A stretch of DNA of 64,000 bases, taken from positions 96,001 through 160,000 of the IMG/VR virus record IMGVR_UViG_3300009431_000002; one strand, given 5' to 3'. Made by a program: the position numbers and the translations under genes. Source of the DNA: a virus. Its lineage: Duplodnaviria > Caudoviricetes. Within the stretch, counting starts at the first letter, position 1; the number at the start of each line of letters is the position of its first letter. This document shows, piece after piece, positions 7,979 through 54,202 of the stretch. Below the pieces are notes generated by a model that searched no databases, was not told the DNA's origin, and worked only from the letters and a program-made list of their open reading frames with translations.

Positions 7979-8001
7979 GTCGACGACACAGTGTCGCCGA
8001 C
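7979..8001. repeat. Palindrome copy 1 (GTCGACGACACAGTGTCGCCGAC)
   Basis: Core CGACAC-A-GTGTCG at 7984-7996; intergenic, after the sheath stop. Confidence 0.85.
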
Positions 8002-8009
8002 CGGCTGCA

Positions 8010-11000
8010 TCACACGATCAGGCGCACCCGGATGTAGTTGCAGGGGTACGGCAGATCGAGCGTGACGTCGATCAGCACGGTGTCCGGGTTGTCCTCGTCC
8101 TGGGTGATGGAGTTGAGCGTGTACCCGATCAGGGACCCGCTGGCCTTCAGGAACTCCAGGAGGCCATCCACAACCGCGGTGAGGGTGTCCAGGAACGCCG
8201 TGGTGATGTTGAAGATGCCCAGGAAGTTACGCAGGGCCGCCCGCAGGAACTTCGACACGAAGTCGAGGTTCTTGGTGATGGACAGCTCGCGCGTCTCCAG
8301 GGTCGTGACGTCGGTCGAGTTCTGGTGGCGGCAGATCAGCGGGGCGCCGTCGTACTCCTGCACCAGGATGTACACACCGCCGCCGGAGATCTCGTTGAGC
8401 AGCGACTCCCGGAAGGTGTCGTTCGAGCCGTAGACGTTGCTGAACCCCGCGATGGGGTAGCGGCTGAAGCCCTGCTGGGGCAGCTGCTGGCTGACCATGC
8501 CGGCGACGGCCGCGCAGGCGTAGTACGCCGGCAGCAGCGTGGTGCCGTCGTCGAGCTCGGCCTCCACCTCGTCGGGGAAGATCATGTACAGGCGGCGGTC
8601 GGCGTAGGTGCTCGCCACGCCGGCCACGGTCTCGGCGATGCCGTCGAGGTCGGGCTGACCCGCCACCTCCAGCGCCGCGCCGCGGATCTTGACGGCCCAC
8701 GTCACGCTGGACACGGTCTCGTCGAAGTCCTCGGTGTCGTAGAACAGGTCGTCGTTCTCGCCCGTGACGAAGGTGGTGTTGATGGCGCACAGCGCCCCGT
8801 TCACCAGGTTGAGGTTGTAGCGGCGCAGCTCGCTGCCCACCGTCGCCTCGAGGTACACGCCGTCGGAGACCGCCAGCGCCGCCGGGTTGAGTCCCTGGGC
8901 CACCAAGCCGTTGGCCGGGCTGGAGTCGCAGATGAACTGGTTCACCGCGCCCGTGGACCGGCCGTCGGTGCCGCTGGCCACCGTCGTCGGCGTCGCCTCG
9001 GTCGGCACCTCGGGGTTGAAGAACAGGATCCGCTCGCCGCGCTGCGCGGCCGCGCTCATCCAGTCCACGTGGGTCTGGAAGAGCTGGTGCACCGTGTCCT
9101 GGTGCGTCAGCGGGGCGATGGCGTAGACCTCCTCGCTCTCGAGGAACTCGGCGGCCCGGGTGAAGGCGCTCAGCGTACCCTCCGGGTGCGCCGAGGAGAC
9201 CTCGTCGACACCGAGCCCCGTCACGCTCACGCCCGAGGCGTTGAGCTTGGCGAAGAACAGGCCCAGGCCGAGCGGGTTGTCGGTGGTCAGCGGCGACAGG
9301 AGCTCCTCGAGCTCGGTGGTGTCGTCGATGACCAGCAGCCCCGGGTTGGAGGCCGCGGCCGCGCTCACGTCCAGACGCAGGCCGTGGTAGCCGATGTAGA
9401 TGCCAGAGGACCCGAGGTACTCGTTGTCGTGCGGGATGCCGGTCATCGTGTCCCGCAGGATCTGCGCACCGATGACGACGCCGCCCGAGGAGTCCAGGTA
9501 GAAGTCCGGGTTGGGCCGGCCGGAGCCGTCCGCCTCGTGGTCGGGGTCGACCATGCCCACGGCCGTGGCCGCGGCCAGCCGGCTGGTGGTGTCGGCCAGG
9601 ACCTCGACTCTGGACGCCTGGCCCAGCAGGAGGCTGGTCAGCACGAGCTGGCGGGTGTTGGTGCCGCCGGCGGACGCCACGATGTTGTCGTTGACCTCCT
9701 CGTTGATCCTGTCGATCAGGTCGTCGAGGGAGTCGCCGATGGGAGTCACGGACCACTCGTGCGGGTTGTAGTCCAGCTGGAAGACGAACTCCTCGCCGGT
9801 GAGGTTGTCCGCGCCGGTGTCCAGATCGTTGTCGCTGGTGCCGCCGGTGAGCTCGTGCTGCAGGAGGTCGCCGGCGCCGGCCACGTCGATGTTGGCGGCG
9901 TCGTTGCCCTGCATCCAGCACTGGTTGCCCAGGAAGCTGTTGACGATGACGTAGACCGTCACCGTGGCCGTGGCCACGCCAGCGGCGTCGGTGTTGTGGG
10001 CGTAGACCTCACCGGCCTGCGCGCCCGCGTTGATGGCCGCGGCGAGGGAGGTGGCACCGGCGATACCCACGCCGGCCCACGCGCCGCCCTCGATGTACTC
10101 CACCTGGGAGCCACCGAGGGCCGTGGTGTCCACGATGAGCGAGTCGGGTCCGGCGGCCGCGCCGCCGATGATCACGTGCTGCTCGGCCGTCGCCGTGCCC
10201 CCCGTGAAGAAGGCCGCGACCGCGCCACCCTGGATCGTCATGTTGGTGAAGTCGTCCGACACGATGGTGCAGAGGTTGCCCTCCCAGCCCGCCAGGTCGA
10301 TGGTCACGGTCACCGTGTCCACGCCGTCGTCGATGGCCGAGATGCCGGCCAGCGTGTCGAGGAAGGCCGCCAGGGCTGCGACGGTGGCCGGAATGTCGCC
10401 CACCACCCTGGACCAGTCCGCGCCGCCGCCCTCCGTGGCCGTCAGTGCGCCACCACCGGCCACCGTGGTGTCGATGGTGATGATGTGCCCCGCCCCGGGG
10501 TCGCCTGTCAGAACGATGTCGGCCGTCGCGCTCACCTCGGCGCCGCCGAAGTTGAAGGCCGCGTCGGTGGTGACCTCGTCCACGTCGACCTCGGTGCCGT
10601 TGCCACCCTCGAGGACCGTGATGGTCAGCCCGCGGGATCCCGCCACGTCGCTGCCCGAGAACTCCACCATCGGGCAGTTGGGCATGCCGTTGGAGGGCAG
10701 GGCCGTGCCGTTGCCGCCGGCCGTGAGCTGCGCGGCGAGCAGGGCCCAGGTGCCTCCGGCGACGTCCGCAGCGTCCAGGGCGTAGCTGAGGTTGAGTCCC
10801 GTGCCGTTGCGGTCGGTGACCGTGAAGGCCAGGACCTCGCCACCGACCAACGGGAAGGCGTAGGGCGCGGGGGTCTCCCCAGCGTCCGGACCGCCGGTGA
10901 CCGAGGCCTGCGTGGAGAACTCGGCGTCCACGCCCTCCCCGCTGCCTCCGCTCAGGGTGTCCATGCCCACGTCGGCGATGGCGTTGTTGGAGCCGGTGGC

Positions 11001-12530: not shown

Positions 12531-12568
12531 GGGCGTCTCCTTCAGTGGGTGCGGCGTCTCTCGCCGCG

Positions 12569-13318
12569 TCACACACCAAATTCTGTATCGGTGTCCGGGC
12601 TATTGGCTAGCCCATAGTGCGCCAGGAACGCGATGTCGTTGAGCACCTCGAAGGGGGGCTTCTCGACATCACTCGCCCGTGGCTCACCAAACACCAGGTC
12701 GAGGGTGGTTCGCTGCGGCGGAACGGTGGGCGTCTCGCTCCACGTCCACTGCATGAACCAGGGAATGGTGACATCGACCATTACGGCCTCTGCCTCGGCG
12801 GATCCGTTGACGATGGCCCCCGGCGGCGTTTCGGGTCCGACAGCGGCCTTCTGTCCGATGTGGTGGAACCCACCTTCCTTCTGCAACAGGCGCCGATGGA
12901 AGACGGTTCCGCGGCTGACGAGGTCGGCGATCCTCCCGGCCTCCATCCCCGTCTCGGCGACGCAGTGCGCCACGAGGTTGCCGGGGATCAGGTCCGTGTG
13001 GGTGCGCTCACCCGTCATCGTGTTCATGGTCCGCAGCTTGTCCATGACGAGCCCGGACCACTCGTAGCCGCCGCGCATCACGACGATGTGCGGCTTCTGC
13101 GCGATGGCCTCCCGGTCGACGGGGGCCTCGGCGGTGATGATGATCTTGGAGTCGTGGTCGTCCGGCTCCCAGCGGAAGGCGTCGACGTGGAAGTGGTTGA
13201 AGAGCCCCTGCAGGAAGCACACGTACAGCCGGCGCGTCCAGTCACCGATGCCCTCGTAGGGGTCTCGGTAGCCCGAGTCCGGCGTGACGGGCGCGACGGT
13301 GGGGACTCTGGAGCTCAA
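12569..13318 (-). CDS. Putative tail terminator/completion protein
   Basis: Immediately upstream of the sheath; TTGA overlap with the previous gene. Function inferred from synteny only. Confidence 0.5.
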   Translation of the reverse strand: MSSRVPTVAPVTPDSGYRDPYEGIGDWTRRLYVCFLQGLFNHFHVDAFRWEPDDHDSKIIITAEAPVDREAIAQKPHIVVMRGGYEWSGLVMDKLRTMNTMTGERTHTDLIPGNLVAHCVAETGMEAGRIADLVSRGTVFHRRLLQKEGGFHHIGQKAAVGPETPPGAIVNGSAEAEAVMVDVTIPWFMQWTWSETPTVPPQRTTLDLVFGEPRASDVEKPPFEVLNDIAFLAHYGLANSPDTDTEFGV

Positions 13319-13710
13319 GCTGTCTCCTCAGCGGCCGCGGCCTCGCGGCGCTTCCGGTCTTCGTGCATCTGCTGGTAGGCCTGGTGGCGATGATACCCGA
13401 GGGCGACGCCGCCGAGAGCTCCGCCTGCGGTCCCGAGGACCTTCAGCGCACGCGCCGCCGTGACCTGCTGTGCGGGGGTGAGGCCGTGCCAGAGTTCCGA
13501 GATGTGCGGCGCCTTGGACAGCGCGTAGTGGCCGGCGCCGCCACCGAGGTACCCGAGACCCACACCGAGGCCGACGGGCAGCCCCACGCGGCCCAACGGC
13601 TCCAGGACGCCGTAGCGGACGCCCTGCCAGAAGGTCGGGGCCTGCGGGTCCTCCGCACGCTCCTCGCCGATCTTCTGGAGCTCGTCGAAGAAGGCGCCGG
13701 TGTCGATCAT
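13315..13710 (-). CDS. Small tagged glycine-zipper protein (putative internal head protein), 131 aa
   Basis: Starts MIDTGAFFDELQKIG (TGATG coupling at 13708-13712); two Gly-rich hydrophobic segments. Confidence 0.7.
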   Translation of the reverse strand: MIDTGAFFDELQKIGEERAEDPQAPTFWQGVRYGVLEPLGRVGLPVGLGVGLGYLGGGAGHYALSKAPHISELWHGLTPAQQVTAARALKVLGTAGGALGGVALGYHRHQAYQQMHEDRKRREAAAAEETA

Positions 13711-15313: not shown

Positions 15314-15322
15314 CCATGTCTC

Positions 15323-17041: not shown

Positions 17042-17045
17042 GTCA

Positions 17046-18592: not shown

Positions 18593-18595
18593 CGA

Positions 18596-19120: not shown

Positions 19121-19121
19121 C

Positions 19122-19844
19122 TCAGTCCTCCATCGACACGATCTTGGCGTCCAGGGCCTTCATGGCGCCGGTGCGGGTCTTGCCCGACTGCTCGGCGTCA
19201 CGCAGGGCCAGGACGTGGTCGGCGTCCTCGCAGGTCTCGAGGAAGGCCTCGAGGTCCCCGATGTTGCCGTCGAGGACCGACAGGTCGTAGGTGACCTCGA
19301 CCTCCTCGGGCTTCTCCTCGAGGTCTTCGGGCTCGTCGGTCTCCGCGGGCGCGCCCGGCCCCGTCTCCTCCCCCAGATCCCCCTCCTCTTCCCCGTCGGC
19401 CTGGGAATCCTCGCCGACATCGGCGTCCTTCTCCTCGGGTGGGTCCTCGAGGTCGTCCAGGCCGACAGGCTCGTCCGCGTCCTCGTCGACCTCCTTCTCG
19501 GCCGGCTCCTCGGGCTCCGGCGGCACGAGCGCCTCCATGTGCAGCGCCGTGAACCGGGCACCGTCGCCGGCCTGCAGGGCCTCGATGGCCTCCTGCCGCT
19601 TGGCCGGGTCCTTGAAGTCGTCGAACAGTTCGGTCAGGTCCGGGCCGGGCTCCGGCTCCGACGACACTGTGTCGTCGACCTCCGGCACGACCTCCTGGAT
19701 GAAGCCGTTCTTGGTCAGGTGTTGGATGTGTCGCCGATCCTTCTTCGCGTCCGCGTCCGAGACGGGGAGCGGTACGGATCCCAGGCACTTGCCTGCGATG
19801 GCGATGTTGGGCGGAGCGCCCGCGAGCTTGCGGTAGTACTTCAT
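19122..19844 (-). CDS. Hypothetical protein with long acidic linker, 240 aa
   Basis: E/D/P-rich central tract and a compact helical C-terminus (LALRDAEQSGKTRTGAMKALDAKI). Confidence 0.7.
   Translation of the reverse strand: MKYYRKLAGAPPNIAIAGKCLGSVPLPVSDADAKKDRRHIQHLTKNGFIQEVVPEVDDTVSSEPEPGPDLTELFDDFKDPAKRQEAIEALQAGDGARFTALHMEALVPPEPEEPAEKEVDEDADEPVGLDDLEDPPEEKDADVGEDSQADGEEEGDLGEETGPGAPAETDEPEDLEEKPEEVEVTYDLSVLDGNIGDLEAFLETCEDADHVLALRDAEQSGKTRTGAMKALDAKIVSMED
19659..19677. repeat. Palindrome copy 2 (CGACGACACTGTGTCGTCG)
   Basis: 19-bp inverted repeat with one unpaired centre base, inside a CDS (VDDTVSS). Confidence 0.85.
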
Positions 19845-24728: not shown

Positions 24729-26420
24729 TCATGCTGGCTGCGCTGAGGCTAGCTTCACCGCCAGCTGTGGGTTGCTCTGAACGATTCGTTCTCCAAGCTC
24801 CGGGCCCAGCCTCTTTCCCGCATCCCAGTGTGCACGGACGAGGTACACGACGGGGCCTGACGAGAACAATCCTGCCAGCGGCCCACCCTCAATGGCAACA
24901 GGCTTTCGCCCGAAAAGCTCAGCGAGGGGGTCCAACTGGTCGGTTGGTAGCCCAAAGTGTGGTTGCGCAGTTTCCCGTGCCAGCAGGGAGAGCAGAGCTC
25001 TCCTGTACCCGTTGTAGGCCCGAGAGATCTCACTCAACAGCGGGTTGTCCGCGTAGTTCGGGGCCGAGGGCTTGGGCACTTCCATGCGGATGATGACGGT
25101 CAGCCTCTTCTTCAGGGGGCCGCCGAACATCGAACGGCCGCCGACCAGTGGGGCCAGCAGCTCCTGCAGGTCTGGCGCGTGGCCAGAGAGGGACGGGCAC
25201 TCGCCCATGTCCATGCACGGCTTGAATACGCTGCCGGCGGAGTCAAGCTCGTCGGCCAGCGGCTTGTTGCCGCAGCGGACCAAGGTGATGCGCTGGAACT
25301 CACGGGGCGTCAGCACGATCCCCATGCGGCCAGCAGTCCCCAGGGCGGTCCCGAGGTCCGACGACACTGTGTCGTTTGGCGCCGCCATCCGGTCGAGGAC
25401 CTTGGAGGGCAAGGGCTTCTCGGTCTTCTCCAACAGGGGGACGGCGTGTCCGGCGGCCTGGCTGGGCGGCAGCTCCTTGATGATGTCGGCGAGCTTCTGC
25501 TGACTGGCCGTCTTCGGGCTGTCCGCCACCATCTCCTGGAGCGCCTCCGCGTACGCGCCCGCGGTCTTCTCGTACCCGAGATCCGCAGCGCGCTCTGCTG
25601 ACGGCGCGGAGAGGGTGCCGGGCTTGACCACGACGAACGTCCTCTTGCCTGACGCCAGCAGTGCCATCACCTTGGCAGTCCTGTCCGCTCCGATCAAGAC
25701 GTACGAGATGTCGAAGAACCGCGGGTGCGGGTTCCACACGAAGATCTGCTGGCCGTCCGGCAGGATCATGTTGGGCCGGTACCGCGGGTCCTTGCGGCTC
25801 ATGTGCTCGCAGTAGTCAGCCCGAGTCTTGGACTTGTGGCCGCAGATCGAGCACACGTCGTACTTGACCCGGCAGCCCATGCTCACCGGCAAGTACTCGC
25901 CCCGCTCCAGGCGCTCGATGATGTCGTAGCCGCCGGCCTGGCGGCACAGGCCGTGGTCCAGCTCCTGGACCAGCTCGACCCGCTTCATCAGGTCGTTCCA
26001 CACCGCCAGCACGACGTCGCCGTACTTCGGGTGGTTGTGCGGCGGGTAGGGCTTGTTCTTGTGGTGCCGGAACGCGTTGGCCAGGTAGAAGGTCGTGTAC
26101 CCGTAGGGCGCGTGCGCGGCGAGACGCCGGCGGCCCTCGATGTCCCAGGGCGGGACGTTGCGCCAGCCCGGCGGCTCCAGCTTCAGGGAGTCGATGCTGA
26201 ACCCGTCGGCGTTGATGTTGGGGCCCCAGATCTCTGTGGCTCCCAGCGCGTTGACCAGTGCGTAGGTCTTGTCGGGCTTCGGCTCCAGCTTGGCGATGAA
26301 CTGCTGCACCTCGTCGTGCAGGGGCGCCGCGGTCTTCACGAGACCGGGCTCACCTGGAGTGACGAGCTGGGAGTAGACGCCCCGCTCGTCCTCCCCCTGG
26401 TAGTGCAGCAGCTTGATCAT
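24729..26420 (-). CDS. Prohead maturation protease (HK97/herpesvirus assemblin-like) with C-terminal extension
   Basis: AFRHH and PVSMGC motifs (candidate His and Ser catalytic residues), CSICGH...YCEH zinc motif; upstream of the capsid gene. Confidence 0.8.
   Translation of the reverse strand: MIKLLHYQGEDERGVYSQLVTPGEPGLVKTAAPLHDEVQQFIAKLEPKPDKTYALVNALGATEIWGPNINADGFSIDSLKLEPPGWRNVPPWDIEGRRRLAAHAPYGYTTFYLANAFRHHKNKPYPPHNHPKYGDVVLAVWNDLMKRVELVQELDHGLCRQAGGYDIIERLERGEYLPVSMGCRVKYDVCSICGHKSKTRADYCEHMSRKDPRYRPNMILPDGQQIFVWNPHPRFFDISYVLIGADRTAKVMALLASGKRTFVVVKPGTLSAPSAERAADLGYEKTAGAYAEALQEMVADSPKTASQQKLADIIKELPPSQAAGHAVPLLEKTEKPLPSKVLDRMAAPNDTVSSDLGTALGTAGRMGIVLTPREFQRITLVRCGNKPLADELDSAGSVFKPCMDMGECPSLSGHAPDLQELLAPLVGGRSMFGGPLKKRLTVIIRMEVPKPSAPNYADNPLLSEISRAYNGYRRALLSLLARETAQPHFGLPTDQLDPLAELFGRKPVAIEGGPLAGLFSSGPVVYLVRAHWDAGKRLGPELGERIVQSNPQLAVKLASAQPA
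25361..25375. repeat. Palindrome copy 3 (ACGACACTGTGTCGT)
   Basis: Inside the protease CDS (NDTVSS). Confidence 0.85.
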
Positions 26421-28122: not shown

Positions 28123-28818
28123 ATGACACAGACCCTATCCAAGAAGGAGGCGGCCGTACATCTGGGCGTCTCCGTGCGCTCTGTCGAGAAGTTCATTCAG
28201 GACGGCCTGCTCCCCAAGTACACCCAGGGGAGGCGTGTGCTGCTCATGGCCGACGATGTCGAGGAACTCCGCGTCGAACGCGAGGAGGCAACGGTCCCGC
28301 TGCTGAACCGGAAGGTCATCGCCGACCTGCGCCGCCGCGTCCGCGTGCTCGAGCACCGCGTCTCCATCGTCCTGAGCATCCATGAGATCTCCGAGCCGCC
28401 ACTCGCCCTCACCGACGAGGACGCACTGCGCGTCTTCACCATGGCCGTGCACGCCGTGGAGCACCCGACCATCGAAGCCTGCACGCGGTGGGCCGCGCTG
28501 CTGCCCCGCATCAACGAGGACGTGCTGGCGCAGATGCAGCGCGTGGCCAAACGGCTCAACCCCGGCGCCACCTTCCTCAAGCTGAGCCTGTCGTTGCAGC
28601 GGCACCTCAAGGAGAACGAGCACTTCGCCACCAGCCTCGAGATGCAGAAGCTCCACGCCCAACTGAGCAACCTCCATCCATTCCTGCGCACCGTCGTCGT
28701 CGCCTTCATCGACATGCAGGAGGGCCTGTCGATCCAGGATCGCGTGAATCTCATCGGCGGGCCCGAGTCCTCCATCGAAGAGGACATCGTCTCCCAGATC
28801 TGCAAGTCCAGCCGCTGA
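28123..28818 (+). CDS. Excisionase/MerR-like helix-turn-helix DNA-binding protein
   Basis: LSKKEAAVHLGVSVRSVEKFIQDGLLP...GRRVLL matches the excisionase-type wHTH pattern; ATG after GGAGG. Confidence 0.8.
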   Translation: MTQTLSKKEAAVHLGVSVRSVEKFIQDGLLPKYTQGRRVLLMADDVEELRVEREEATVPLLNRKVIADLRRRVRVLEHRVSIVLSIHEISEPPLALTDEDALRVFTMAVHAVEHPTIEACTRWAALLPRINEDVLAQMQRVAKRLNPGATFLKLSLSLQRHLKENEHFATSLEMQKLHAQLSNLHPFLRTVVVAFIDMQEGLSIQDRVNLIGGPESSIEEDIVSQICKSSR

Positions 28819-29816: not shown

Positions 29817-31586
29817 TTACGCGGCGAGCTTCTGCGGCACGAAGATGTCCGGCCGCGGGATGCGGCGGGTCGATGCGAGCAAGCACAACAGCGCGGCGTG
29901 GTAGGAGTCATCCGTGGTCTCCGGCGCCAGCTTGTACTCGTCCTGTCGGGTCTTCTCGTTGTACTCGGTGAAGATGTTGACGAAGTCCGAAGCGAACGGC
30001 TCCTTGAACTGCCGCCAGTTGGGGAACCGGATCAGCTGCTTGCCCTGGTTCTTCATCGCGTTGAAGAAGTCGGCCATCACGGCGGTCCGGTTGACGACGT
30101 ACCTGTGCAGGCCGGGGTCCCAGCGCCACTTCTCGTTGGGCTGGCTGTACTGCCACTTCGTGATGCGCTGAGGGCCGAAGGTCTTGATGAGCTCGTTGTT
30201 GGGGAAGTGGCCACCACCGAAGTCGCAGGCCACGACCTCGACCTTCCAGGTGTTGATCAGCTGCTTGATGAGGTCGAGCTGGACATCCGGCTCAGCCTCT
30301 GGCCCCTCGAACCTGTGCAGGTAGAAGATGGTGAAGCGGTCGTCGCCCGGGAAGTAGGTGCCCAGGCACACGACGGTGTAGCTGGACTCGCTGCCACCCG
30401 CCCAGTCCACGCCCATGAACACGCGGCCGCTGCCGCCGAGCCGGGCGCCGAACTTCCGCATGCTGTCGGCGTCCATGCTGATCTTCGAGTCGCACAGCAT
30501 CTGGAGCTGACGGCGCGTGATGGGCCGGACACCAGAGTCGTAGCTCAGACCCAGGACCTCGTTGAAGAACCGGACCCGCGGGTAGAACTGCTGCTTCTGC
30601 AGGATGTCGGTCCAGCTGATCCACGGCACCATCAGCTGCGGGATCCGGAAGCCCTCGAACGGCTCGGGGATGTCCGGGTGCGGGTTCATCATCGCCCACT
30701 GCGCCATCGGGTGCATGGGGTCGATGGGCCGGCCGCAGCGGTCGCAGATGCAGCCGTGCTTGCCGATGTTCCGCTCGGTCAGGATGTTCCAATGCCAGGA
30801 GCTCGGGTCCTTCGGCGTGCCGTGACGCTCGCAAGGAACCACCCACTCGTTCTGGGTCGAGTAGTAGACCCAGTAGTGCTCCATCGGATTGTCGGTGGAT
30901 TTCGGCGTGCCCGAGTAGGTGAACAGGCCCCACGGCGAGTGGGAAGCCGTCTCCTCGATCACCGGAATGTTGCCGAGCAGGATGTCCTGGAGCTCGTCGA
31001 TGCACACCATGTCCGCAGAGATCCCGCGGGTCCGGTCGGCGTTGTGGTAGGCGTAGCGCAGCCGGATGAAGGCGTGGTTGATGAACTTCTTGAGGTGGAT
31101 GTTGTCGGCGAGTTTCGTGGTCGTCCAGCTCGCCAGCACGGGGCTGATGCTGATGGGGTCGGCCAGCCGATCTCGGGAGAACTGGTTCGTCTGGGTGTGG
31201 GTCGGGGAGACGTAGAGGCTCTTGAAGCCGGTGTTGATGCACGAGTAGCTCAGCATCTTGTTGCCGAGCATCGTGCTCTTCTCGACCTGTCGGCCGGTCT
31301 TCAGTAGAACTCTCTTGTAGCTGGTGTCATAAGGGCGTCGTAGGTAACGGCGCTCGGAGAAATCGAAGGGGACGATGCGGTTCTTCTCTTGGTCGACGAC
31401 CTTGATGGCGTACTCGGTGAAGTCTGAGGGGCGCGCGTAGATGAGCGCCTCTTCCGTCTTCTCCTCAACGTAGTCCTCGCTGACGGGGTCGTAGGGTTCG
31501 ACCTCGAGGTCCCAATCCTCGGTCTCGACCCACTCGCCGTTGTTCCGCCAATCTTGGATGACGCGCGGCGCTACCTCGAATGTCAT
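29817..31586 (-). CDS. terL: Terminase large subunit
   Basis: Walker A-like LLKTGRQVEKST, Walker B VCIDELQD preceded by RGISAD, nuclease motif FMGVDWAGG and C-terminal DDSYHA. Confidence 0.9.
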   Translation of the reverse strand: MTFEVAPRVIQDWRNNGEWVETEDWDLEVEPYDPVSEDYVEEKTEEALIYARPSDFTEYAIKVVDQEKNRIVPFDFSERRYLRRPYDTSYKRVLLKTGRQVEKSTMLGNKMLSYSCINTGFKSLYVSPTHTQTNQFSRDRLADPISISPVLASWTTTKLADNIHLKKFINHAFIRLRYAYHNADRTRGISADMVCIDELQDILLGNIPVIEETASHSPWGLFTYSGTPKSTDNPMEHYWVYYSTQNEWVVPCERHGTPKDPSSWHWNILTERNIGKHGCICDRCGRPIDPMHPMAQWAMMNPHPDIPEPFEGFRIPQLMVPWISWTDILQKQQFYPRVRFFNEVLGLSYDSGVRPITRRQLQMLCDSKISMDADSMRKFGARLGGSGRVFMGVDWAGGSESSYTVVCLGTYFPGDDRFTIFYLHRFEGPEAEPDVQLDLIKQLINTWKVEVVACDFGGGHFPNNELIKTFGPQRITKWQYSQPNEKWRWDPGLHRYVVNRTAVMADFFNAMKNQGKQLIRFPNWRQFKEPFASDFVNIFTEYNEKTRQDEYKLAPETTDDSYHAALLCLLASTRRIPRPDIFVPQKLAA

Positions 31587-31612: not shown

Positions 31613-31642
31613 TTTACACGCCGTAACGTAGGCCTCTACCAT
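31613..31642 (+). promoter_or_regulatory. Sigma70-like promoter TTTACA-N18-TACCAT upstream of parB
   Basis: Hexamers at 31613-31618 and 31637-31642, followed by GAGGAGGAG RBS and ATG at 31658. Confidence 0.45.
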
Positions 31643-31657: not shown

Positions 31658-32674
31658 ATGAAGGTCCAGCTCATTCCACGGGGCGAGATCCGCCTCGACC
31701 TCAACCTGCTGCCCAATCCACGCGAGTGGCACATCCGGGAGGAGTCGGGGTTCGCGCTCCGCATCATCCAGGTCGGCCGCCTCGACCAGCCCATCGACGT
31801 CTGGTTCGACGGCGAGCACTACTACCTGGTCAACGGACTCCGCCGATGGCTCGCCCTGGAGTGGATGGAGGAACACCGCCCCGACGAGTACCACGCCATG
31901 TTCGACGACGGCATCGAGTGCCTCGTCCGGACGGGCGACATCGAGGACGTCATCGTCGCGGCCATCGTGGTCAACGCCGACCGCGAGGAGTACACCCCGC
32001 TCGAGATCGCCAACGCCTGCGAGATCCTGCGCAGCCGGGGCTACGGCAACAAGAAGATCGCTGCCATCGTCAACAAGGACGTCCGCACCGTCCAGCGCGC
32101 CCTGGAGTTCAAGGACAAGACCGACGAGTCCGTCACCGAGCTCGTGCGCGAGGGCGTCCTCAAGTTCAGCGCCGCCTGCGACGTCGTCAAGGCCCCCCGC
32201 AACACGTGGAAGGGACTGCTGGACGAGCTGATGGGCGTGAAGCCGCACATCGACGAGAAGGCCGACCCCAACACCATGCCCCACAAGAAGCGGAAGAAGG
32301 GCCCCAAGGGCAAGACCTCCTCCAAGGAGGCGGGCGCCAAGGAGCTCAACCCGCGGTCGCCGACCCGCCGCAAGAAGCCGGCGCCGAAGAAGGACGGGAT
32401 CACCAAGACCCGGGAGCGCGCCAAGAAGCTGGGCGGCCGAGCCGGCGGCAAGAAGACCATCACCGAGATCCGGTCGCTCGTCGGGGAGACGGAGCAGCAG
32501 CTCAAGCAGCACGAGATCGACGGCAAGGGCCAGATCCTCGAGCCGGACGAGGTGGCGCGTCGGAAGGGCGAGAACGCGGCCGGTGCCATCTCGTACCACT
32601 ACGACAAGGGCAAGCTCGAGGGCATGATCGCGGGCCTCAAGTGGGCGCTGGGTGAGGGCAAAGACGCATCCTGA
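31658..32674 (+). CDS. parB: ParB/Spo0J-family protein with Lys-rich C-terminus
   Basis: QPIDV...YYLVNGLRRWLA (GxRR motif), NADREEYTPLEIANA, HTH GNKKIAAIVNKDVRTVQRAL. Confidence 0.85.
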   Translation: MKVQLIPRGEIRLDLNLLPNPREWHIREESGFALRIIQVGRLDQPIDVWFDGEHYYLVNGLRRWLALEWMEEHRPDEYHAMFDDGIECLVRTGDIEDVIVAAIVVNADREEYTPLEIANACEILRSRGYGNKKIAAIVNKDVRTVQRALEFKDKTDESVTELVREGVLKFSAACDVVKAPRNTWKGLLDELMGVKPHIDEKADPNTMPHKKRKKGPKGKTSSKEAGAKELNPRSPTRRKKPAPKKDGITKTRERAKKLGGRAGGKKTITEIRSLVGETEQQLKQHEIDGKGQILEPDEVARRKGENAAGAISYHYDKGKLEGMIAGLKWALGEGKDAS

Positions 32675-33175: not shown

Positions 33176-33609
33176 CCCGCAGCCGCGACCAGAAGGCTTC
33201 GGCCGGGGGATGCCCCCCGGCCGGGGCCGGCCGTGTGGACCCGTTGTTAGCTCAGAGGCTCGTGTGGGTGGACGACCTCGGCGCGGCGCTGTCCGACGCC
33301 ACCGACAAGGTGGAGCACGTCTTCATCACCGTGGACCCCGTCCGCAAGATGGCGGTCAGAATCGACATGAGGCTATCGGAACCCCTGGAGCCGGGGTCCG
33401 AGAAGCATTTCGCCAACGTGATTCGCGGCTGGGCCGCGGTCAACGACGTGGACGTGCTGAAGGTGACGACACAGTGTCGTCGCGTGTTGGTGGACGCCCA
33501 CGTCAAGTACCTTGGAGGTGGAGAGTGCCGTCACAGTATATGGGATCTGCGCCCAGCCCCGCGAAGCCGCCACCGCTTCGTGCGCATCGGGGACCGCGGA
33601 AGAAAATGA
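33172..33609 (+). CDS. Hypothetical protein, about 145 aa
   Basis: GTGA coupling at 33172-33175 and ATGA coupling with the next gene. Confidence 0.55.
   Translation: MTRSRDQKASAGGCPPAGAGRVDPLLAQRLVWVDDLGAALSDATDKVEHVFITVDPVRKMAVRIDMRLSEPLEPGSEKHFANVIRGWAAVNDVDVLKVTTQCRRVLVDAHVKYLGGGECRHSIWDLRPAPRSRHRFVRIGDRGRK
33465..33481. repeat. Palindrome copy 4 (GACGACACAGTGTCGTC)
   Basis: Inside 33172-33609 (reads TTQCR there), about 0.8 kb downstream of parB. Confidence 0.85.
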
Positions 33610-41284: not shown

Positions 41285-42194
41285 CGTCCTCTCCCAAGGT
41301 GTCAGCGACATCCGCGGTGTCGCTGTACGTTCCTCCCGCCTCCGGGTCGGCCAGCTGATGCAGGGACACCGGCGGCTGTTTGTCATTCTGCACGCGCATC
41401 CGCTCGAAGTCCTTGAGCAGACGGCGCAGTTCATCCTCGCTCGTGGCCACGCGCTTGTCGATGGCCAATGCCGTGTTGGCCAGCCCGGTGAGCATCGTGA
41501 TCTTGTCCCGGCTCAACGACACTGTGTCGTCGACCGTCACGAAGTTGATGTACAGGCGACGCCGCATGTCCTGCAGCATCTCCTGCCCCTCGAGGCCGGC
41601 CCGCAGGCCCATGCGGTGGAGCGTGGCCTCTCGGCCAGACCGCAGCGCGACCTCGTGGTCCTCCTGCACCATCGGCGGCAGGTCCTGGGACAGGATGGTC
41701 TCGGACCACTCCTCCAGGCTCATGGCCCGGACGTTCCAGTAGTAGTGCGCGAACGACTGGACGCCGTCTGTGGTGATCCGTAGACCCTCTGCCCGACCCA
41801 CCTCGCGTGCGATGACGTGGAAGGGCACCTGCCCCAGCAGTCCGACCTCTACTCGCCGGCGGACCCGGAAGTCCAGGAGGATCGTGTTGGCCTCCTCGAC
41901 GGCGCGCGTCGGGTGGTGCAGCGAGAAGATGCGGTGCCGTCGCAGGTACCGTGCGGTCCGGATGTTCCTGCGGTCCCGGGGCAGGAAGGGGTTCGGGATG
42001 TCCTTGAGCAGCTGGGCACGGAGGCGGCTGACGTACTGCTCCTCGGCCTCGGGCAGCCGATACATCTCCAGGTGCGTCTTCACGAACTCGTAGCTGCACT
42101 TCTCCGGATGCCCCTGCGTCAGCAGGAAGAGGATGAACCGTTCGCTCGGATGAGCACGCTGCTCCCGAGCGGGTGGGAGCAGATCCATCGTCAT
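41250..42194 (-). CDS. Hypothetical protein, 314 aa (helical; possible packaging accessory/terminase small subunit)
   Basis: ATGA coupling; globular composition without the K-x-A signature. Functional guess is weak. Confidence 0.55.
   Translation of the reverse strand: MTMDLLPPAREQRAHPSERFILFLLTQGHPEKCSYEFVKTHLEMYRLPEAEEQYVSRLRAQLLKDIPNPFLPRDRRNIRTARYLRRHRIFSLHHPTRAVEEANTILLDFRVRRRVEVGLLGQVPFHVIAREVGRAEGLRITTDGVQSFAHYYWNVRAMSLEEWSETILSQDLPPMVQEDHEVALRSGREATLHRMGLRAGLEGQEMLQDMRRRLYINFVTVDDTVSLSRDKITMLTGLANTALAIDKRVATSEDELRRLLKDFERMRVQNDKQPPVSLHQLADPEAGGTYSDTADVADTLGEDDDGSEDIDEDA
41516..41530. repeat. Palindrome copy 5 (ACGACACTGTGTCGT)
   Basis: Inside 41250-42194 (VDDTVSL). Confidence 0.85.
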
Positions 42195-52600: not shown

Positions 52601-52811
52601 CGTCGGCCATAACAGGGTCAGCCCAAGTCCTGCCCTTGAGCTTCGCGTCCTGCTGGGACCGGATGTCGTCGATGCCCTTCTTGTCGTCGACCCAGACCCG
52701 GTGGAGCTCCAGCCGGTTCTCTCGCCCCTCGAAGGGGAACATCGACGAGATGGCGTCGCTGACACGGTCTTTGAGGGCACCGTAGGAACCCTCTGGGTTC
52801 AGTGTCGCCAT
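46665..52811 (-). CDS. rpoBC: Single-chain fused beta-beta' multisubunit-type RNA polymerase, 2048 aa
   Basis: Beta motifs GDKLVGRHGNKG, LNPAGIPGRINLGQVLE, ILKLKH; beta' motifs KPERGGLF, PVMPPVMRP, LLKRDPVLH, YNADFDGDQM (catalytic), HGARKG (bridge helix), SQALGEPATQLSMRAFH (trigger loop). Confidence 0.97.
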   Translation of the reverse strand: MATLNPEGSYGALKDRVSDAISSMFPFEGRENRLELHRVWVDDKKGIDDIRSQQDAKLKGRTWADPVMADVSLVNKETGKVISRKSMRVGNLPRVTKRHSYIVDGKEYQVDNQFRLKAGVYHRVSAKGELESQWNMAKGKNFRLRFHPEDRRFLVRYGNSHIPLYPMLKVLGVDDDTIERELGRGILNQGKKEKHDVAMRAFYKASTGKQAPSIEDAERHLRDEFGTTVLRPDSTKITLGKAYDKVSGPSLLASAHKLARISRGEDTPDAREHLFYKDALSVDDFVAERLTRGRWDLQRKMENNIDRKADVREVVTPGLFDKPIKTFFTQTQLSQMPDQVNPLEFISGQSKTTIMGEGGVKSTHTLTDADQLIDPTHLGFLDPIHTPEGDRTGITLQLPLGVSRKGKTLYIQAYNTKTGRREKIDPHKAHRSTVAFPDQYKKVKNRLVPIGKEVTVSGPGGEVMQVPASEVDYILPSAKGLFSMATNLVPFLQNNQGNRAMTASRQQEQAVPLVDRDEPLVQSKTEVRSTFEDVLGQFNSHESPVEGTVVSVRPGAIKIRSKAGKLEEVQLYDHFPLNEASSVLHSEPLVKKGDKVKRGQTVADTNFTREGKLALGKNLRVAYIPYRGYNFEDGIVVSESAAEKLKSQHMHRKSMRLTKNTVLDKKKFRAYAPPDRVQREVYDKLDDDGVIQVGQEVNEGDILVAALKKPEQTSERRMRARLHKSLVRDMDPKPIVWDKDTKGRVVRVVKRGKDVSVHVATEEPARVGDKLVGRHGNKGIVTAVLPDHEMPRASGEEGAPVEVLLNPAGIPGRINLGQVLETMAGKIARKRGKRYVTNNFGGANRNYAKEMKAELAKEGLSDTEELVDPKSGQSLGPILTGDQYILKLKHQIDKKSHARAGGAGYAYSVNEVPKGGGAHGAQAMDALGMYAMLAHGAKANIREMATYKSQKNPELWMALQTGEQLPPPSTSFAFDKFNGYLNVLGVDVKKQGSTLNLAPLTDEQILRMSSGELKDPGLMFRGKDLKPERGGLFDPYATGGVDGKRWSHIRLAEPMPNPVFEKAILTFTGLKNKDYQAVIAGEKTLDGKTGPEAIRARLAAIDPRQQLETLRRQAETTKAVSTMAKLRKQIRFLEALVANDLTPDQAYFTSVVPVMPPVMRPVSVMESGKLNDSDINGLYKSLGITNIQLRDYDPGLGEKTKSKLTAELYDGLRALMMTGSTINGRKHRGVMETMKGVPQPKDSFFQKNLVSRRQDLSMRSTIIPEPDMGLDEVGIPYKLAKETYKPFVVRKLVREQGYVPAEAQHLVRTNSKVARHALERVMEERPVLLKRDPVLHKFGVMAFKPKLVGGKAIRIHPLVTSGYNADFDGDQMSAYVPLAKEAVEEARKLFPSNNLFNTTTGRVMYSPGHEAQLGLYRLTEWGKKTSHRFDSPAQVAAKARKLGLGMTDVVSVKGRETTLGRILLDRVLPEGMRGDAQLLHSKDFRMSKGPTKDLLTRMAKEHSADFGDVVNDLKDMGNDYAYESGASFTLDDFQAQQAVRDRALAGVHKAAKRIQKMKSLTQEEKDQRLVDLYSKATEDLSRAIRPKLERQGNHALEMVNAGARGNWDQVRQILIAPMLVKDAADRIVPVPITKSYAEGLDSASYFTAMHGARKGMIQKTKETAKPGALTKDVVNSAMNLVVVDGDAPDDADDGISADPEDREVIGRYLARPVKLRGGDVLPRNTEVTDRVQTRMKNSGVRRVSIRSPLKSVAPKGLYARDYGNLPDGQLPDPGTNIGVIASQALGEPATQLSMRAFHEGGVAASKSGRSTDKFTRVQDLLRMPKVLADSATLATTTGTVERVEKDAEVGGLNIWVKGKRHYVPEHLVNEKIKLRKGVKVRKGDRLSGGPINPHEMLPLTNINTVRGYLADEVHKAYSDAGPVLRRNVETAVRAITDLGVVDDAGDTDLLPGDLVSTSNVGYHNKKRKKPVKFTPILRGVTQTPLDMQEDWMARLQYQKLKDTIVDGALRGWSSNIHGLHPIPALAYGSEFGQPEKGTPGTTEFRVGY

Positions 52812-53630: not shown

Positions 53631-53928
53631 GGCGCTACGATTCAGCGACCTCACGCGCCGCGCCAAGGAGGACCGAGAGGAGGCCCTCCGCCAGGACGAC
53701 GCCGGCGAACCACGAGTCATCTGCGACTACTGCGACCAGCCAATCGTGCCCGGAGAGGTCGGCTTCGCCATCCAGCAATTCGAGGTGGTGGTGAGCAACA
53801 AGTCCGGGCGCGACGTCTACCAGGACATCCACATGGAGGACGGGTCCTCCGAGAAGTGCTACCACTTCACGTGTCTCGCCGAGCACATCACCCAGCCGTG
53901 CATCATCGGAGCCGAGCATGAAATGTGA
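53623..53928 (+). CDS. Small zinc-finger protein (CxxC...HxxC)
   Basis: ICDYCDQP...CYHFTCL. Confidence 0.7.
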   Translation: MRRALRFSDLTRRAKEDREEALRQDDAGEPRVICDYCDQPIVPGEVGFAIQQFEVVVSNKSGRDVYQDIHMEDGSSEKCYHFTCLAEHITQPCIIGAEHEM

Positions 53929-54187
53929 CTGGTGCGACTGCGAGTTCGAGCCCGATGAGGAGGCCATGCTGGTCATCGAGGGGCAGATGACCCTCTCCCC
54001 CAAGTCCGAGCGCCTGGTGCTGGGCAAGGAGATGACCCCCAAGTACTTCCACAAGGCCTGCCTCTACGAGGTGGCCATGCACGCGATGGAGCTCGACGAC
54101 GAGTACCTCGCCCAGGTCGGCGCCAACGTGCGCGAGATGCTGGAGGAGGAACTGCGCGAGAAGATCTACGACGAGCTGACTGCCTGA
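53918..54187 (+). CDS. Small zinc-finger protein (CxxC...HxxC), paralog of 53623-53928
   Basis: KCDWCDCE...YFHKACL. Confidence 0.7.
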   Translation: MKCDWCDCEFEPDEEAMLVIEGQMTLSPKSERLVLGKEMTPKYFHKACLYEVAMHAMELDDEYLAQVGANVREMLEEELREKIYDELTA

Positions 54188-54202
54188 CGACACAGTGTCG
54201 TC
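54186..54202. repeat. Palindrome copy 6 (GACGACACAGTGTCGTC)
   Basis: Begins at the stop of 53918-54187, just before the terminator. Confidence 0.85.

What the first reader, a model, noticed from the sequence alone, without database searches (positions are those of the whole stretch)
7979..54202. Six dispersed copies of a 13-19 bp palindrome (CGACAC-W-GTGTCG) in a genome encoding ParB: candidate parS-like system
Seen: the core occurs at 7984, 19662, 25362, 33467, 41517 and 54188; five extend to ACGACACWGTGTCGT; a 3-nt-spacer variant lies at 2804. Two are intergenic. Four are in CDSs, in two different reading phases (DDTVS/NDTVS with an ACA Thr codon unusual here, and TTQCR), pointing to DNA-level selection. 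My rough independent-base expectation at about two-thirds GC is about 0.003 copies per 64 kb; codon bias would raise this somewhat. Established: ParB dimers load at roughly 16-bp palindromic parS sites. Inference: sites for the ParB at 31658 (segregation or compaction), for one of the HTH proteins, or hairpins for the phage RNAP (N4 vRNAP promoters are short-stem, 3-nt-loop hairpins). My scan was by eye and may have missed copies.
Basis: partly seen in the sequence, partly recalled or inferred. Interest (0 to 1): 0.8.

Follow-up and report, generated by a model that had tools for sequence, protein, structure and literature searches.

The report
Evenly spaced ParB-type sites on phage
A 202-kb virulent jumbo phage carries 15 perfect, evenly spaced copies of a 13-bp palindrome that selection has forced even into protein-coding sequence, and they are most likely docking sites for the phage's own partner-less ParB/KorB-like DNA clamp, whose DNA-reading residues change together with the palindrome in related phages.

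Summary
All six copies are real, and the complete 201,921-bp phage genome holds 15 exact copies of CGACAC-W-GTGTCG against 0.06 expected under a codon-preserving null.

- **DNA-level selection:** all eight D-T-V-S tetrapeptides in the proteome are written exactly as GAC-ACW-GTG-TCG. Near-miss sites occur only at background level.
- **Spacing:** gaps run from 5.7 to 23.9 kb, significantly more even than random (CV 0.40, P about 2e-4).
- **Relatives:** phages at about 70% protein identity lack this word. They carry CGACAG-W-CTGTCG or CGGACAG-N-CTGTCCG at non-orthologous but equally regular positions.
- **Candidate reader:** a TerL-adjacent ParB/Noc/KorB-fold protein with an HTH and a predicted dimeric C-terminal domain. 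No ParA or integrase is present. It is only about 30% identical between lineages, and it differs at the positions known to set ParB/Noc specificity.

My best reading (about 0.55) is genome-wide loading sites for an orphan phage ParB clamp, not a partition centromere. The rivals are an XRE-type regulator or another dimeric protein, a hairpin element, and a nickase or packaging signal.

Earlier unchecked notes from this scan report similar palindrome-plus-phage-ParB pairings on other phage genomes. I found no published description for a virulent jumbo phage.

The parts
7984..7996 (.). Palindrome copy (centre A). Intergenic, in the 43-bp gap between two minus-strand genes (7115-7966 and 8010-12530).
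   Evidence: no sigma70-like promoter or terminator at the site
19662..19674 (.). Palindrome copy (centre T) inside CDS 19122-19844(-), read as D-D-T-V-S-S.
25362..25374 (.). Palindrome copy (centre T) inside CDS 24729-26420(-), read as N-D-T-V-S-S. Orthologues have R-G-S-V-A-D or R-S-T-V-S-A at this position.
33467..33479 (.). Palindrome copy (centre A) inside a small ORF (33268/33172-33609, +) in the alternative phase T-T-Q-C-R. It is the copy nearest the ParB gene, 0.8 kb downstream.
41517..41529 (.). Palindrome copy (centre T) inside CDS 41250-42194(-), read as D-D-T-V-S-L. Orthologues have D-K-V-I-P-L or D-E-R-I-P-I.
54188..54200 (.). Palindrome copy (centre A). Intergenic between convergent genes; it starts directly after the TGA stop codon of 53918-54187(+).
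54209..54228 (+). Separate canonical intrinsic terminator (8-bp GC stem followed by a T-run), 8 bp after the palindrome. It shows the palindrome is not the terminator here.
2804..2818 (.). Single variant with a 3-nt spacer (CGACAC-GTA-GTGTCG). Intergenic and the only one in the genome. Its membership of the system is uncertain.
31658..32674 (+). Candidate reader: a 338-aa orphan ParB/Noc/KorB-like protein. It has an N-terminal ParB/Srx fold with a G-L-R-R-W-L-A box, an HTH DNA-binding domain, a basic disordered linker and a helical C-terminal dimerisation domain. The true start is ATG 31658, preceded by a GAGGAGG Shine-Dalgarno.
31613..31642 (+). Sigma70-like promoter match (TTTACA-18-TACCAT, 9 of 12) upstream of the ParB gene, in the 71-bp gap between TerL and the ParB start codon.
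   Evidence: consensus match only
29817..31586 (-). Large terminase (gpA-type), divergently paired with the ParB gene. The pairing is conserved in all lineages that have the palindrome array. In relatives TerL itself carries a palindrome copy.
59645..60043 (+). Rival candidate reader: a 132-aa XRE-type HTH_31 protein near the head of the replication module. It is present in all three motif lineages and not found in G004.
28123..28818 (+). 231-aa HTH_17 protein, a probable small terminase. A weak rival, because it is also present in motif-less G004.

Best explanation
The palindromes are high-specificity docking sites on double-stranded DNA for a two-fold symmetric phage protein. The most likely reader is the TerL-adjacent, partner-less ParB/Noc/KorB-like protein encoded at 31658-32674.

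Proposed mechanism (inferred):
1. ParB dimers, held together by the C-terminal domain, recognise (tCGA)CGACAC-W-GTGTCG(TCGa) through the HTH recognition helix and the following helix.
2. As in ParB, Noc and KorB, they then close and spread or slide from each site.
3. One site every 5.7-24 kb (mean 13.5 kb) would load the whole 202-kb chromosome.

The likely purpose is genome-wide organisation, marking, compaction or long-range silencing of phage DNA. ParA-driven partition is unlikely.

What is shown: strong DNA-level selection, all-or-none sites, regular spacing, lineage-specific motif variants, and a co-varying ParB DNA-binding surface.
For: **Site properties**
- 15 exact copies against 0.06 expected under the codon-aware null.
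- All 8 DTVS peptides are encoded with the rare ACW Thr codon.
- Sites arose by amino-acid substitution where orthologues have other residues.
- Near-miss sites are at background: 4 non-exact sites at up to 2 mismatches against about 4 expected.
- The central base is A or T in 15 of 15 copies in a 67% GC genome.

**Spacing**
- In this genome, CV 0.40, P = 1.5e-4 to 5e-4, minimum gap 5.7 kb.
- Regularity is replicated in relatives: the merged G001/G002 set (11 sites) has minimum gap 4.75 kb with P = 0.001; G003 gives P = 0.005.

**Relatives**
- G001-3 carry CGACAG-W-CTGTCG (8, 8 and 6 copies). G006 carries CGGACAG-N-CTGTCCG. None carries our word.
- Positions are not orthologous to ours.
- Between G002 and G003, six shared sites are 13/13 conserved while the flanks average about 80% identity.

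**Reader**
- Sequence and fold match ParB, Spo0J, Noc and KorB: phmmer E = 9e-5; A1 profile E = 1.7e-11; Foldseek E about 2e-7; KorB-KorA-DNA complex 8qa9 at RMSD about 4 A.
- The C-terminal domain is predicted to homodimerise: score 0.45 against best control 0.00. That mark was reached by 21 of 30 solved homodimers and 0 of 23 single chains; runs agree at 91% or more of contacts; pLDDT at least 70.
- The divergent TerL-ParB pair is conserved in every lineage with the array. G004, at 49% TerL identity, lacks both the TerL-adjacent ParB (hhalign probability 0.1%) and any such array.
- ParB is about 30% identical between lineages, against TerL 72% and RNAP 67%.
- Its DNA-contact segment is 83-98% identical within same-motif lineages but 25-40% between lineages.
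- The positions equivalent to Caulobacter ParB 173/179/184/201, which set parS versus NBS specificity (PMC7383237), read V/A/D/S in our phage, T/L/K(T)/D in G001-3 and T/W/D/D in G006. The two lineages sharing the inner ACAG-W-CTGT share the switch residues 173 and 201; ours differs at both.
- Each lineage has a site within 0.8-1.8 kb of its ParB gene, gained independently at different TerL codons.
- Invariant bases abutting the dyad are typical of parS, NBS and OB sites (plus general knowledge).
Against: - No binding data exist.
- Covariation rests on only three independent lineages.
- The XRE-type protein has the same presence/absence pattern and also varies in its HTH.
- The Pfam ParB_N model does not detect the protein.
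- The two glutamates used for CTP hydrolysis in canonical ParB (in GERR and ENxxR) are replaced: G-L-R-R and V-N-A-D-R here. CTP-dependent clamping is therefore uncertain.
- No site lies in the ParB promoter.
- G004 and G005 encode a different, more canonical ParB but show no palindrome array.
- Contig G008, from the same RNAP family, has a dense palindrome array with no ParB. Palindrome arrays in this family can therefore have other readers.
Confidence: 0.55

Rival explanations
1. The sites are operators for another dimeric sequence-specific phage protein. The main candidate is the 132-aa XRE-type HTH_31 protein (59645-60043) near the head of the replication module; a DNA-binding protein not yet recognised is also possible.
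For: - The XRE protein is present in G000, G002 and G006 and was not found in motif-less G004.
- It is fairly divergent (38-41% identity) and varies at two recognition-helix positions.
- In G002 one palindrome copy lies inside the XRE gene.
- XRE proteins commonly bind palindromes as dimers (general knowledge).
- Only part of the proteome could be screened for DNA-binding domains.
Against: - Its helix core S-x-E-Y-I-R-x-I-E is largely conserved. The Q/L variation groups G000 with G006, not with the motif's inner base.
- The nearest site is 5.4-5.5 kb from the XRE gene in G000 and G006.
- Classical XRE/Cro operators lie in promoters, are degenerate and have poorly conserved centres. These sites are mostly intragenic, all-or-none, evenly spaced and invariant right up to the dyad.
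Confidence: 0.2
2. The palindrome acts as a hairpin or cruciform in single-stranded DNA or RNA. Possible roles are a promoter or pause element for the phage's fused RNAP, a priming or replication signal, or an RNA-processing site.
For: - Each copy can fold as a 5-9-bp stem with a 3-nt C-W-G loop.
- The outer change in G006 keeps stem complementarity.
- A related contig, G008, has a dense intergenic hairpin motif just upstream of start codons.
- The phage encodes its own RNAP, primase and DnaB.
Against: - 10 of 15 copies are intragenic and have no consistent orientation relative to the coding strand: 5 ACA against 3 ACT.
- Positions are not conserved between lineages.
- A hairpin would need pairing, not 13 of 13 sequence identity in every copy.
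- The swap next to the centre changes both loop-flanking bases symmetrically. A dimer on duplex DNA requires that; a hairpin loop does not.
- There is no T-run after the sites, and a separate canonical terminator lies next to the 54188 copy.
- Spacing of about 13 kb does not match gene or operon boundaries.
Confidence: 0.1
3. The sites are targets of a site-specific nuclease or nickase, or of the packaging machinery. Examples would be regularly spaced nicks as in T5-like phages, or auxiliary terminase recognition sites.
For: - All-or-none sequence specificity and regular spacing.
- The ParB gene and a palindrome copy always lie next to or inside TerL.
- ParB-fold proteins include nucleases (general knowledge; see the survey in PMC12704722).
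Against: - The protein has the full ParB HTH and dimerisation architecture rather than a stand-alone nuclease domain.
- The TerS-like HTH_17 protein is also present in motif-less G004.
- 15 dispersed pac or cos sites are not expected for a gpA-type terminase.
- No read-level data were available to look for ends or nicks.
Confidence: 0.08
4. A host protein reads the sites: the phage hijacks or titrates a host regulator or nucleoid factor.
For: The host is unknown, so this cannot be excluded directly.
Against: - Closely related phages (about 70% identity) use different words, which points to a reader that co-evolves within the phage.
- The genome has no canonical parS.
- The 15-mer is essentially single-copy in 2.9 million viral contigs.
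Confidence: 0.04

Closest known systems
KorB and its OB operators on IncP plasmid RK2 (PMC11790492)
   Same: - The site is an odd-length 13-bp palindrome; the OB oligonucleotide contains TTTAGC-G-GCTAAA.
- Copies are spread around the replicon rather than clustered.
The predicted structure superposes best on the KorB-KorA-DNA complex (8qa9, RMSD about 4 A).
- KorB loads at OB as a CTP-dependent clamp and slides to act at a distance.
   Different: - Here the replicon is a virulent 202-kb phage, not a plasmid.
- There is no ParA/IncC partner.
- Most sites are intragenic and regularly spaced at about 13 kb.
- The hydrolysis glutamates are missing.
- No KorA-like clamp-locking partner has been identified.
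- Protein identity to KorB is only about 18%.
Noc and its NBS sites on Firmicute chromosomes (PMC7383237; PDB 7nfu, 7ol9)
   Same: - An orphan ParB paralogue without ParA.
- Palindromic sites scattered over a large part of a chromosome, many inside genes.
- Specificity is set by a few residues in the recognition helix and the following helix, the same positions that vary here.
   Different: Noc is a cellular protein with a membrane-targeting helix that acts in division-site selection. The site sequence is unrelated and of even length. I know of no report of regular spacing for NBS sites.
Chromosomal ParB-parS (Spo0J; PDB 1vz0, 6t1f, 7bnk)
   Same: The best sequence and fold matches. Shared features are the GxxRxxA box, the HTH, a C-terminal dimer, a palindromic site with CAC/GTG next to the dyad, and a site close to the parB gene.
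   Different: - Canonical parS is 16 bp, clustered near the origin, and works with ParA and SMC.
- Here there is no ParA and no canonical parS.
- The sites are dispersed over the whole genome.
- The catalytic glutamates are replaced.
SopB and the IR1-4 centromere sites of phage-plasmid N15 (10.1101/862136; their dispersal is from my own knowledge)
   Same: A phage genome with several separate inverted-repeat sites for a ParB-family protein, rather than one centromere cluster.
   Different: N15 is a temperate plasmid-prophage with SopA (a ParA), and its four sites serve partition. Here there are no lysogeny or partition genes, and there are 15 evenly spaced sites.
Stoperators of cluster A mycobacteriophages and matS/MatP of enterobacteria (from my own knowledge, not tested here)
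   Same: Many dispersed copies of a roughly 13-bp protein-binding word, including intragenic copies. matS is a 13-bp palindrome that organises a chromosome domain.
   Different: Stoperators are asymmetric, oriented with transcription and bound by an immunity repressor. MatP is a ribbon-helix-helix host protein confined to the Ter domain. Neither reader type was found here.

Membership tests
ParB/Noc/KorB family (protein at 31658-32674) | N-terminal ParB/sulfiredoxin fold with the GxxRxxA nucleotide-binding box | tested here: met
   G-L-R-R-W-L-A aligns to the GERRxRA box of Spo0J/ParB. Foldseek matches ParB, Noc, KorB and sulfiredoxin. G, R, R and A are invariant in the six orthologues. The Pfam ParB_N model itself gives no hit.
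ParB/Noc/KorB family (protein at 31658-32674) | Central HTH DNA-binding domain homologous to the parS-binding domain | tested here: met
   Alignments to 1vz0, 7bnk and 4umk run through the HTH and the following helix. The model has pLDDT above 90 in this region.
ParB/Noc/KorB family (protein at 31658-32674) | C-terminal dimerisation domain | tested here: met
   Predicted homodimer of residues 240-338: score 0.45 against best control 0.00. The mark was reached by 21 of 30 solved homodimers and 0 of 23 single chains; run agreement at least 91%; pLDDT at least 70. This is a model, not a measurement.
ParB/Noc/KorB family (protein at 31658-32674) | Catalytic glutamates for CTP hydrolysis (E of GERR, E of ENxxR) | tested here: not met
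   The residues are replaced by Leu and Val in this phage (G-L-R-R; V-N-A-D-R) and by Met and Leu in G001-3. The role of these glutamates comes from general knowledge and from the mutant names of PDB entries 7o0n and 7bnr.
ParB/Noc/KorB family (protein at 31658-32674) | CTP binding and clamp closure at the cognate site | not testable with these tools
   Needs biochemistry: nucleotide-binding assays and cysteine cross-linking.
Type I ParABS partition system | Cognate ParA ATPase and a ParA-interaction motif on ParB | tested here: not met
   No AAA_31 or CbiA-type ATPase was found anywhere in the CheckV-complete genome. I saw no LG(K/R)GL-like motif in the N-terminus (motif as defined in PMC12704722).
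parS / NBS / OB-type cognate sites (the DNA word) | Short perfect palindrome of 13-16 bp in several near-identical copies, including intragenic ones | tested here: met
   15 identical 13-bp cores, extending to a 21-bp palindromic consensus. Ten are in CDS.
parS / NBS / OB-type cognate sites (the DNA word) | Site sequence co-varies with the ParB DNA-contact residues across lineages | tested here: met
   Three motif variants pair with three ParB variants at the 173/179/184/201-equivalent positions. Residues are identical within the same-motif lineages. Only three independent lineages are available.
parS / NBS / OB-type cognate sites (the DNA word) | Specific binding by the cognate ParB | not testable with these tools
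   No protein-DNA prediction or assay was available.
Canonical centromere (parS cluster) | Sites clustered near parB or the origin | tested here: not met
   Sites are over-dispersed across the whole genome. Each lineage does, however, have one copy within 0.8-1.8 kb of parB.
N4-type hairpin promoters | Oriented hairpins upstream of early genes, read by a virion single-subunit RNAP | tested here: not met
   Sites are mostly intragenic and unoriented. The RNAP is a fused beta-beta' multisubunit type.
Intrinsic terminators | GC-rich stem followed by a T-run at gene ends | tested here: not met
   No T-run follows the window's intergenic copies, and a separate canonical terminator lies beside the 54188 copy.

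The most novel reading that the evidence does not exclude
A virulent jumbo phage coats its entire chromosome with a partner-less, probably hydrolysis-deficient ParB-type clamp. The clamp loads from a self-specific, regularly spaced array of sites. Site and clamp specificity diversify together between sister phages, like incompatibility groups. This would be a phage 'chromosome identity and organisation' system used for compaction, protection, transcriptional timing or discrimination of self DNA, not for partition.
Probability: 0.3. Interest if true: 0.85.

Novelty: new variant of a known kind. Interest (0 to 1): 0.72.

Why it matters
ParB-family CTP clamps are known from chromosome and plasmid partition (ParB), nucleoid occlusion (Noc) and plasmid gene silencing (KorB). 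Their roles in lytic phages are essentially unexplored, even though ParB-fold genes are common in phages (PMC12704722).

This case offers three things:
- **A defined, testable pair:** one protein and one 13-21-bp word.
- **A natural specificity-switch series:** C/G swapped next to the dyad, with matching changes at the residues known to reprogram ParB/Noc.
- **An unusual constraint:** regular spacing over a whole 200-kb genome, which suggests that coverage by a spreading protein is itself the selected trait.

It also shows how strongly a DNA-binding site can override protein coding. Every DTVS tetrapeptide in the proteome exists because of the site.

If confirmed, the pair would provide orthogonal ParB/site sets for DNA labelling. 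It would also give a handle on how jumbo phages without a phage nucleus organise or mark their DNA.

Tried and rejected
- **GenBank phages:** no relative by DNA or by ParB protein. TerL gives only distant hits.
- **ParB word-index search:** found only the protein itself.
- **IMG/VR scan for the 15-mer:** 35 stretches, nearly all single hits. The word is not shared by other viruses.
- **Metagenome and genome-collection scans with the ParB alignment:** added only one 4-kb fragment and nothing, respectively. P0004 and P0005 contigs had no retrievable DNA.
- **Sequencing runs:** only one marine metagenome holds 11% of the sampled words, so read-end, nick and expression tests were not possible.
- **Chance, codon bias or a protein motif as the cause:** rejected.
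- **Mobile-element footprint or insertion:** rejected. Sites align without indels to orthologues, and flanks are unrelated.
- **Terminator role:** rejected.
- **TerS-like HTH_17 protein as reader:** disfavoured, because it is present in motif-less G004.
- **Search for a degenerate palindrome family in G004:** nothing convincing.
- **Dense palindromes in G008, L064 and L093:** a different, per-gene intergenic phenomenon without ParB.
- **ParB's internal G-L-L-D-E-L-M-G-V and the N-terminal head-protein tag:** the resemblance is weak and I dropped it.
- **Orientation of the central A/T:** no pattern along the genome or relative to genes.


Full report
**Observation.** Dinucleotide shuffles expect 0.01 copies. 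Five copies extend to ACGACACWGTGTCGT. The 3-nt-spacer variant at 2804 is real, intergenic and unique in the genome. The window is bases 96,001-160,000 of a single 201,921-bp IMG/VR virus contig with 67.3% GC, rated complete by CheckV. The whole genome holds 15 exact copies and essentially no near-misses. Sites with up to 2 mismatches number 4 beyond the exact ones, against about 4 expected from a third-order Markov model. No other word of 11 bases or more is comparably over-represented.

**Selection acts on the DNA, not on a peptide.** I built a codon-model gene map (241 genes, 92% coding). It agrees with JGI gene calls on a near-identical contig. Five sites are intergenic (P = 0.005 given 8% non-coding DNA). 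Eight lie in CDS in the phase GAC-ACW-GTG-TCG = D-T-V-S, and two in the phase T-[Q/L]-C-R.

I permuted synonymous codons while keeping every protein sequence and the global codon usage. That null gives 0.06 copies in CDS against 10 observed, with a maximum of 2 in 3000 shuffles. The proteome contains eight DTVS tetrapeptides against 0.93 expected, and all eight are spelled with the motif, although ACA and ACT are only 7.7% of Thr codons. Aligning the host proteins with their orthologues shows no indels. The sites were made by amino-acid substitutions, for example N-D-T-V-S-S against R-G-S-V-A-D, and D-D-T-V-S-L against D-K-V-I-P-L.

**Anatomy.**
- The 13 core positions are invariant in all 15 copies.
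- The centre is A or T in 15 of 15 copies (8 A, 7 T), with no pattern relative to gene strand or genome position.
- The symmetrised flanks extend the consensus to a 21-bp palindrome, tCGA-CGACAC-W-GTGTCG-TCGa.

**Spacing.** Gaps are 5.7-23.9 kb, mean 13.5 kb. Their coefficient of variation is 0.40. Random placement gives a CV that low, or a minimum gap that large, in fewer than 1 in 1000 trials.

**Context.** Site contexts are heterogeneous:
- between two divergent tRNA operons (genome position 15183);
- in a divergent promoter region (genome position 87639);
- between convergent genes (54188);
- between co-directional genes (7984, and genome position 39099);
- inside ten unrelated genes.

At 54188 a separate canonical terminator follows 8 bp downstream. 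No sigma70-like promoter or T-run accompanies the window's intergenic copies.

**The phage.** The window encodes:
- a gpA-type large terminase;
- a 2048-aa fused beta-beta' RNA polymerase;
- an SNF2 helicase;
- a replication module with an XRE regulator, helicases, UDG, DnaB, primase, Pol A, HU, RecA and RusA.

The genome also carries 29 tRNAs. It has no ParA-type ATPase, tyrosine integrase or serine recombinase. No relatives were found in prokaryote genomes. The phage therefore looks virulent.

**Relatives change the word but keep the system.** TerL and RNAP searches of IMG/VR found a large family of phages with the fused RNAP. None of the close relatives carries our word.

- G001, G002 and G003 (TerL about 72% and RNAP about 67% identical to ours) carry CGACAG-W-CTGTCG in 8, 8 and 6 copies. 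This is the same architecture with the base pair next to the centre swapped symmetrically in every copy. In CDS those copies use the analogous phase, GAC-AGW-CTG-TCG = D-[S/R]-L-S.
- G006, a third lineage, has three copies of CGGACAG-N-CTGTCCG plus four copies of a one-mismatch form, GGACAG-S-CTGGCC.
- Site positions are not orthologous between our phage and the others; the nearest distances are 0.4-5.7 kb.
- TerL carries copies at two different codons in different lineages.
- Spacing is again regular. The merged G001/G002 set has 11 sites with a minimum gap of 4.75 kb (P = 0.001). G003 gives P = 0.005 and G006 P = 0.009.
- Between G002 and G003, six shared sites are identical at all 13 positions, while the 60-bp flanks on each side average about 80% identity.

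The word is therefore under purifying selection within a lineage. It turns over in sequence and position between lineages, while number and spacing are kept. This argues for a genome-wide function read by a co-evolving phage factor. It argues against gene-specific promoters or terminators and against a host factor.

**The candidate reader.** The gene at 31658-32674 starts at an ATG with a GAGGAGG Shine-Dalgarno and a sigma70-like promoter match upstream. It is divergently paired with TerL, and this arrangement is conserved in every lineage that has the array.

- Pfam's ParB_N model misses it.
- PHROG ParB profiles match at E = 1.5e-16.
- phmmer against the PDB finds Thermus Spo0J at E = 9e-5.
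- A six-orthologue profile reaches E = 1.7e-11 to M. xanthus ParB and E = 1e-9 to Caulobacter ParB.
- An AlphaFold model (pLDDT 85) matches ParB, Noc, Spo0J and KorB. The best superposition is on the KorB-KorA-DNA complex.

All of these place it in the ParB/Noc/KorB family, with both the N-terminal nucleotide-binding fold (G-L-R-R-W-L-A) and the HTH domain. The C-terminal helical domain is predicted to homodimerise: score 0.45 against best control 0.00. That mark was reached by 21 of 30 solved homodimers and 0 of 23 single chains; run agreement is at least 91% and pLDDT at least 70. The two glutamates that canonical ParBs use for CTP hydrolysis are replaced, so nucleotide use is uncertain.

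**Covariation.** ParB is about 30% identical between lineages. It is among the three most divergent of roughly 50 full-length shared orthologues. Its DNA-contact segment is the best-conserved part within same-motif lineages (83-98%), but no better conserved than the rest between lineages (25-40%).

Jalal et al. showed that parS versus NBS specificity is set by Caulobacter ParB positions 173, 179 and 184 (recognition helix) and 201 (next helix). Residue 201 reads a base near the dyad (PMC7383237). Using the HMMER alignments as register, these positions read as follows:

| Lineage | 173/179/184/201 | Inner word |
|---|---|---|
| Our phage (G000) | V/A/D/S | ACAC-W-GTGT |
| G001-3 | T/L/K(T)/D | ACAG-W-CTGT |
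| G006 | T/W/D/D | ACAG-N-CTGT |

The two lineages that share the inner ACAG/CTGT share the switch residues 173 and 201 (and His at 175). Ours differs at all three. G001-3 and G006 differ at the outer base of the word and also at positions 177, 179 and 184.

Each lineage also has a copy within 0.8-1.8 kb of its ParB gene. G004, at 49% TerL identity, lacks both the TerL-adjacent ParB and any repeated palindrome of this kind. It has a different, more canonical ParB elsewhere.

**Rivals.**
- The 132-aa XRE-type protein has the same phyletic pattern and cannot be excluded. Its helix is mostly conserved, its variable positions do not track the motif, and classical XRE operators are promoter-bound, degenerate and poorly conserved at the centre.
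- The TerS-like HTH_17 protein is also present in G004.
- A hairpin role is possible in principle: each copy folds with a 3-nt loop. It fits poorly with intragenic, unoriented, positionally unconserved and sequence-invariant copies.
- A nickase or packaging role could not be tested, because no read data were available.
- G008 shows that other members of this phage family have dense intergenic palindromes without ParB. This is a caution that palindrome arrays need not be ParB sites.

**Comparison with known systems.** The closest analogue is KorB with its 13-bp OB operators dispersed on RK2. KorB is a CTP-dependent clamp that loads at OB and slides to silence distant promoters (PMC11790492). 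Noc-NBS (an orphan ParB with a chromosome-wide palindrome set) and the IR1-4 sites of phage-plasmid N15 are also close.

The differences here are:
- a virulent jumbo phage as the replicon;
- no ParA;
- regular spacing across the whole genome;
- sites mostly forced into coding sequence;
- missing hydrolysis residues;
- a natural series of specificity variants.

I found no paper that describes such a system in jumbo phages. Earlier unchecked notes from this scan report similar palindrome-plus-phage-ParB pairings on other, mostly smaller or temperate, phage genomes.

**Verdict.** The ParB-site interpretation is the best supported at about 0.55 but remains unproven. A partition function is unlikely. 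I class the finding as a new variant of a known kind, and it has clear, cheap biochemical tests.

Noticed in passing
window 46665-52811 (-); loci L043-L122: The 2048-aa fused beta-beta' RNA polymerase defines a large, compositionally diverse family of viral contigs. 295 IMG/VR stretches match it, with GC from 23% to 70% and identity down to about 25%.
   Followed up: partly
L067 (G008, 150-kb contig), 70-19270: 13 copies of tGCGTAAG-S-CTTACGCa in 20 kb. They are strictly intergenic, often just upstream of an RBS and ATG, and spaced 1-3 kb apart. No ParB homologue is present in the contig. This is probably a per-gene promoter, terminator or RNA-processing hairpin for this RNAP-phage lineage.
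   Followed up: partly
L064 and L093: Two other RNAP-family contigs carry repeated ATTAAC-N-GTTAAT (5 copies in 20 kb) and ATTAACGTTAAT (7 copies in 20 kb) palindromes. Their reader is unknown.
   Followed up: no
It may be a targeting or scaffolding tag.
   Followed up: partly
genome 20487, 65323, 88044, 105566 (window 9566), 164586: A second palindrome, TGGCCG-CGGCCA, occurs five times against about 0.1 expected from base composition. It is GC-rich, so less striking, and I did not analyse it further.
   Followed up: no
G004 (L134-L143), 79279 and 126438; ParB-like gene at 80652-81551: The more distant relative has a canonical-looking ParB (G-S-R-R-L-R-A; E-N-I-D-R) away from TerL. It also has a few CCACGTGG-centred near-parS palindromes, one of them 1.4 kb from that gene. 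This may be an ordinary small parS set.
   Followed up: no
G006 (L152-L154) 6055, 17293, 39417, 45221: Besides three perfect copies, G006 has four copies of an asymmetric one-mismatch form, GGACAG-S-CTGGCC. One lies at the TerL codon position where G002 and G003 have a perfect site, and it uses a rare AGG Arg codon. With these included, the spacing becomes regular at about 5-12 kb.
   Followed up: partly
window 25362 and genome 197623: Two different proteins (563 aa and 863 aa) share the longer context A-P-N-D-T-V-S, with DNA GCGCCAAA-CGACAC... in both. I did not check whether they share a duplicated segment.
   Followed up: no
genome 12273-26580 (upstream of the window): 29 tRNA genes lie in several operons. 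One palindrome copy (genome 15183) sits in the 371-bp gap between two divergent tRNA operons.
   Followed up: partly
window 59268-64000 and L159: A compact replication and recombination module on the plus strand: XRE regulator, ResIII helicase, UDG, DnaB-like helicase, DnaG-type primase, family A DNA polymerase, HU-like protein, RecA-like protein, PD-(D/E)XK nuclease and RusA.
   Followed up: yes
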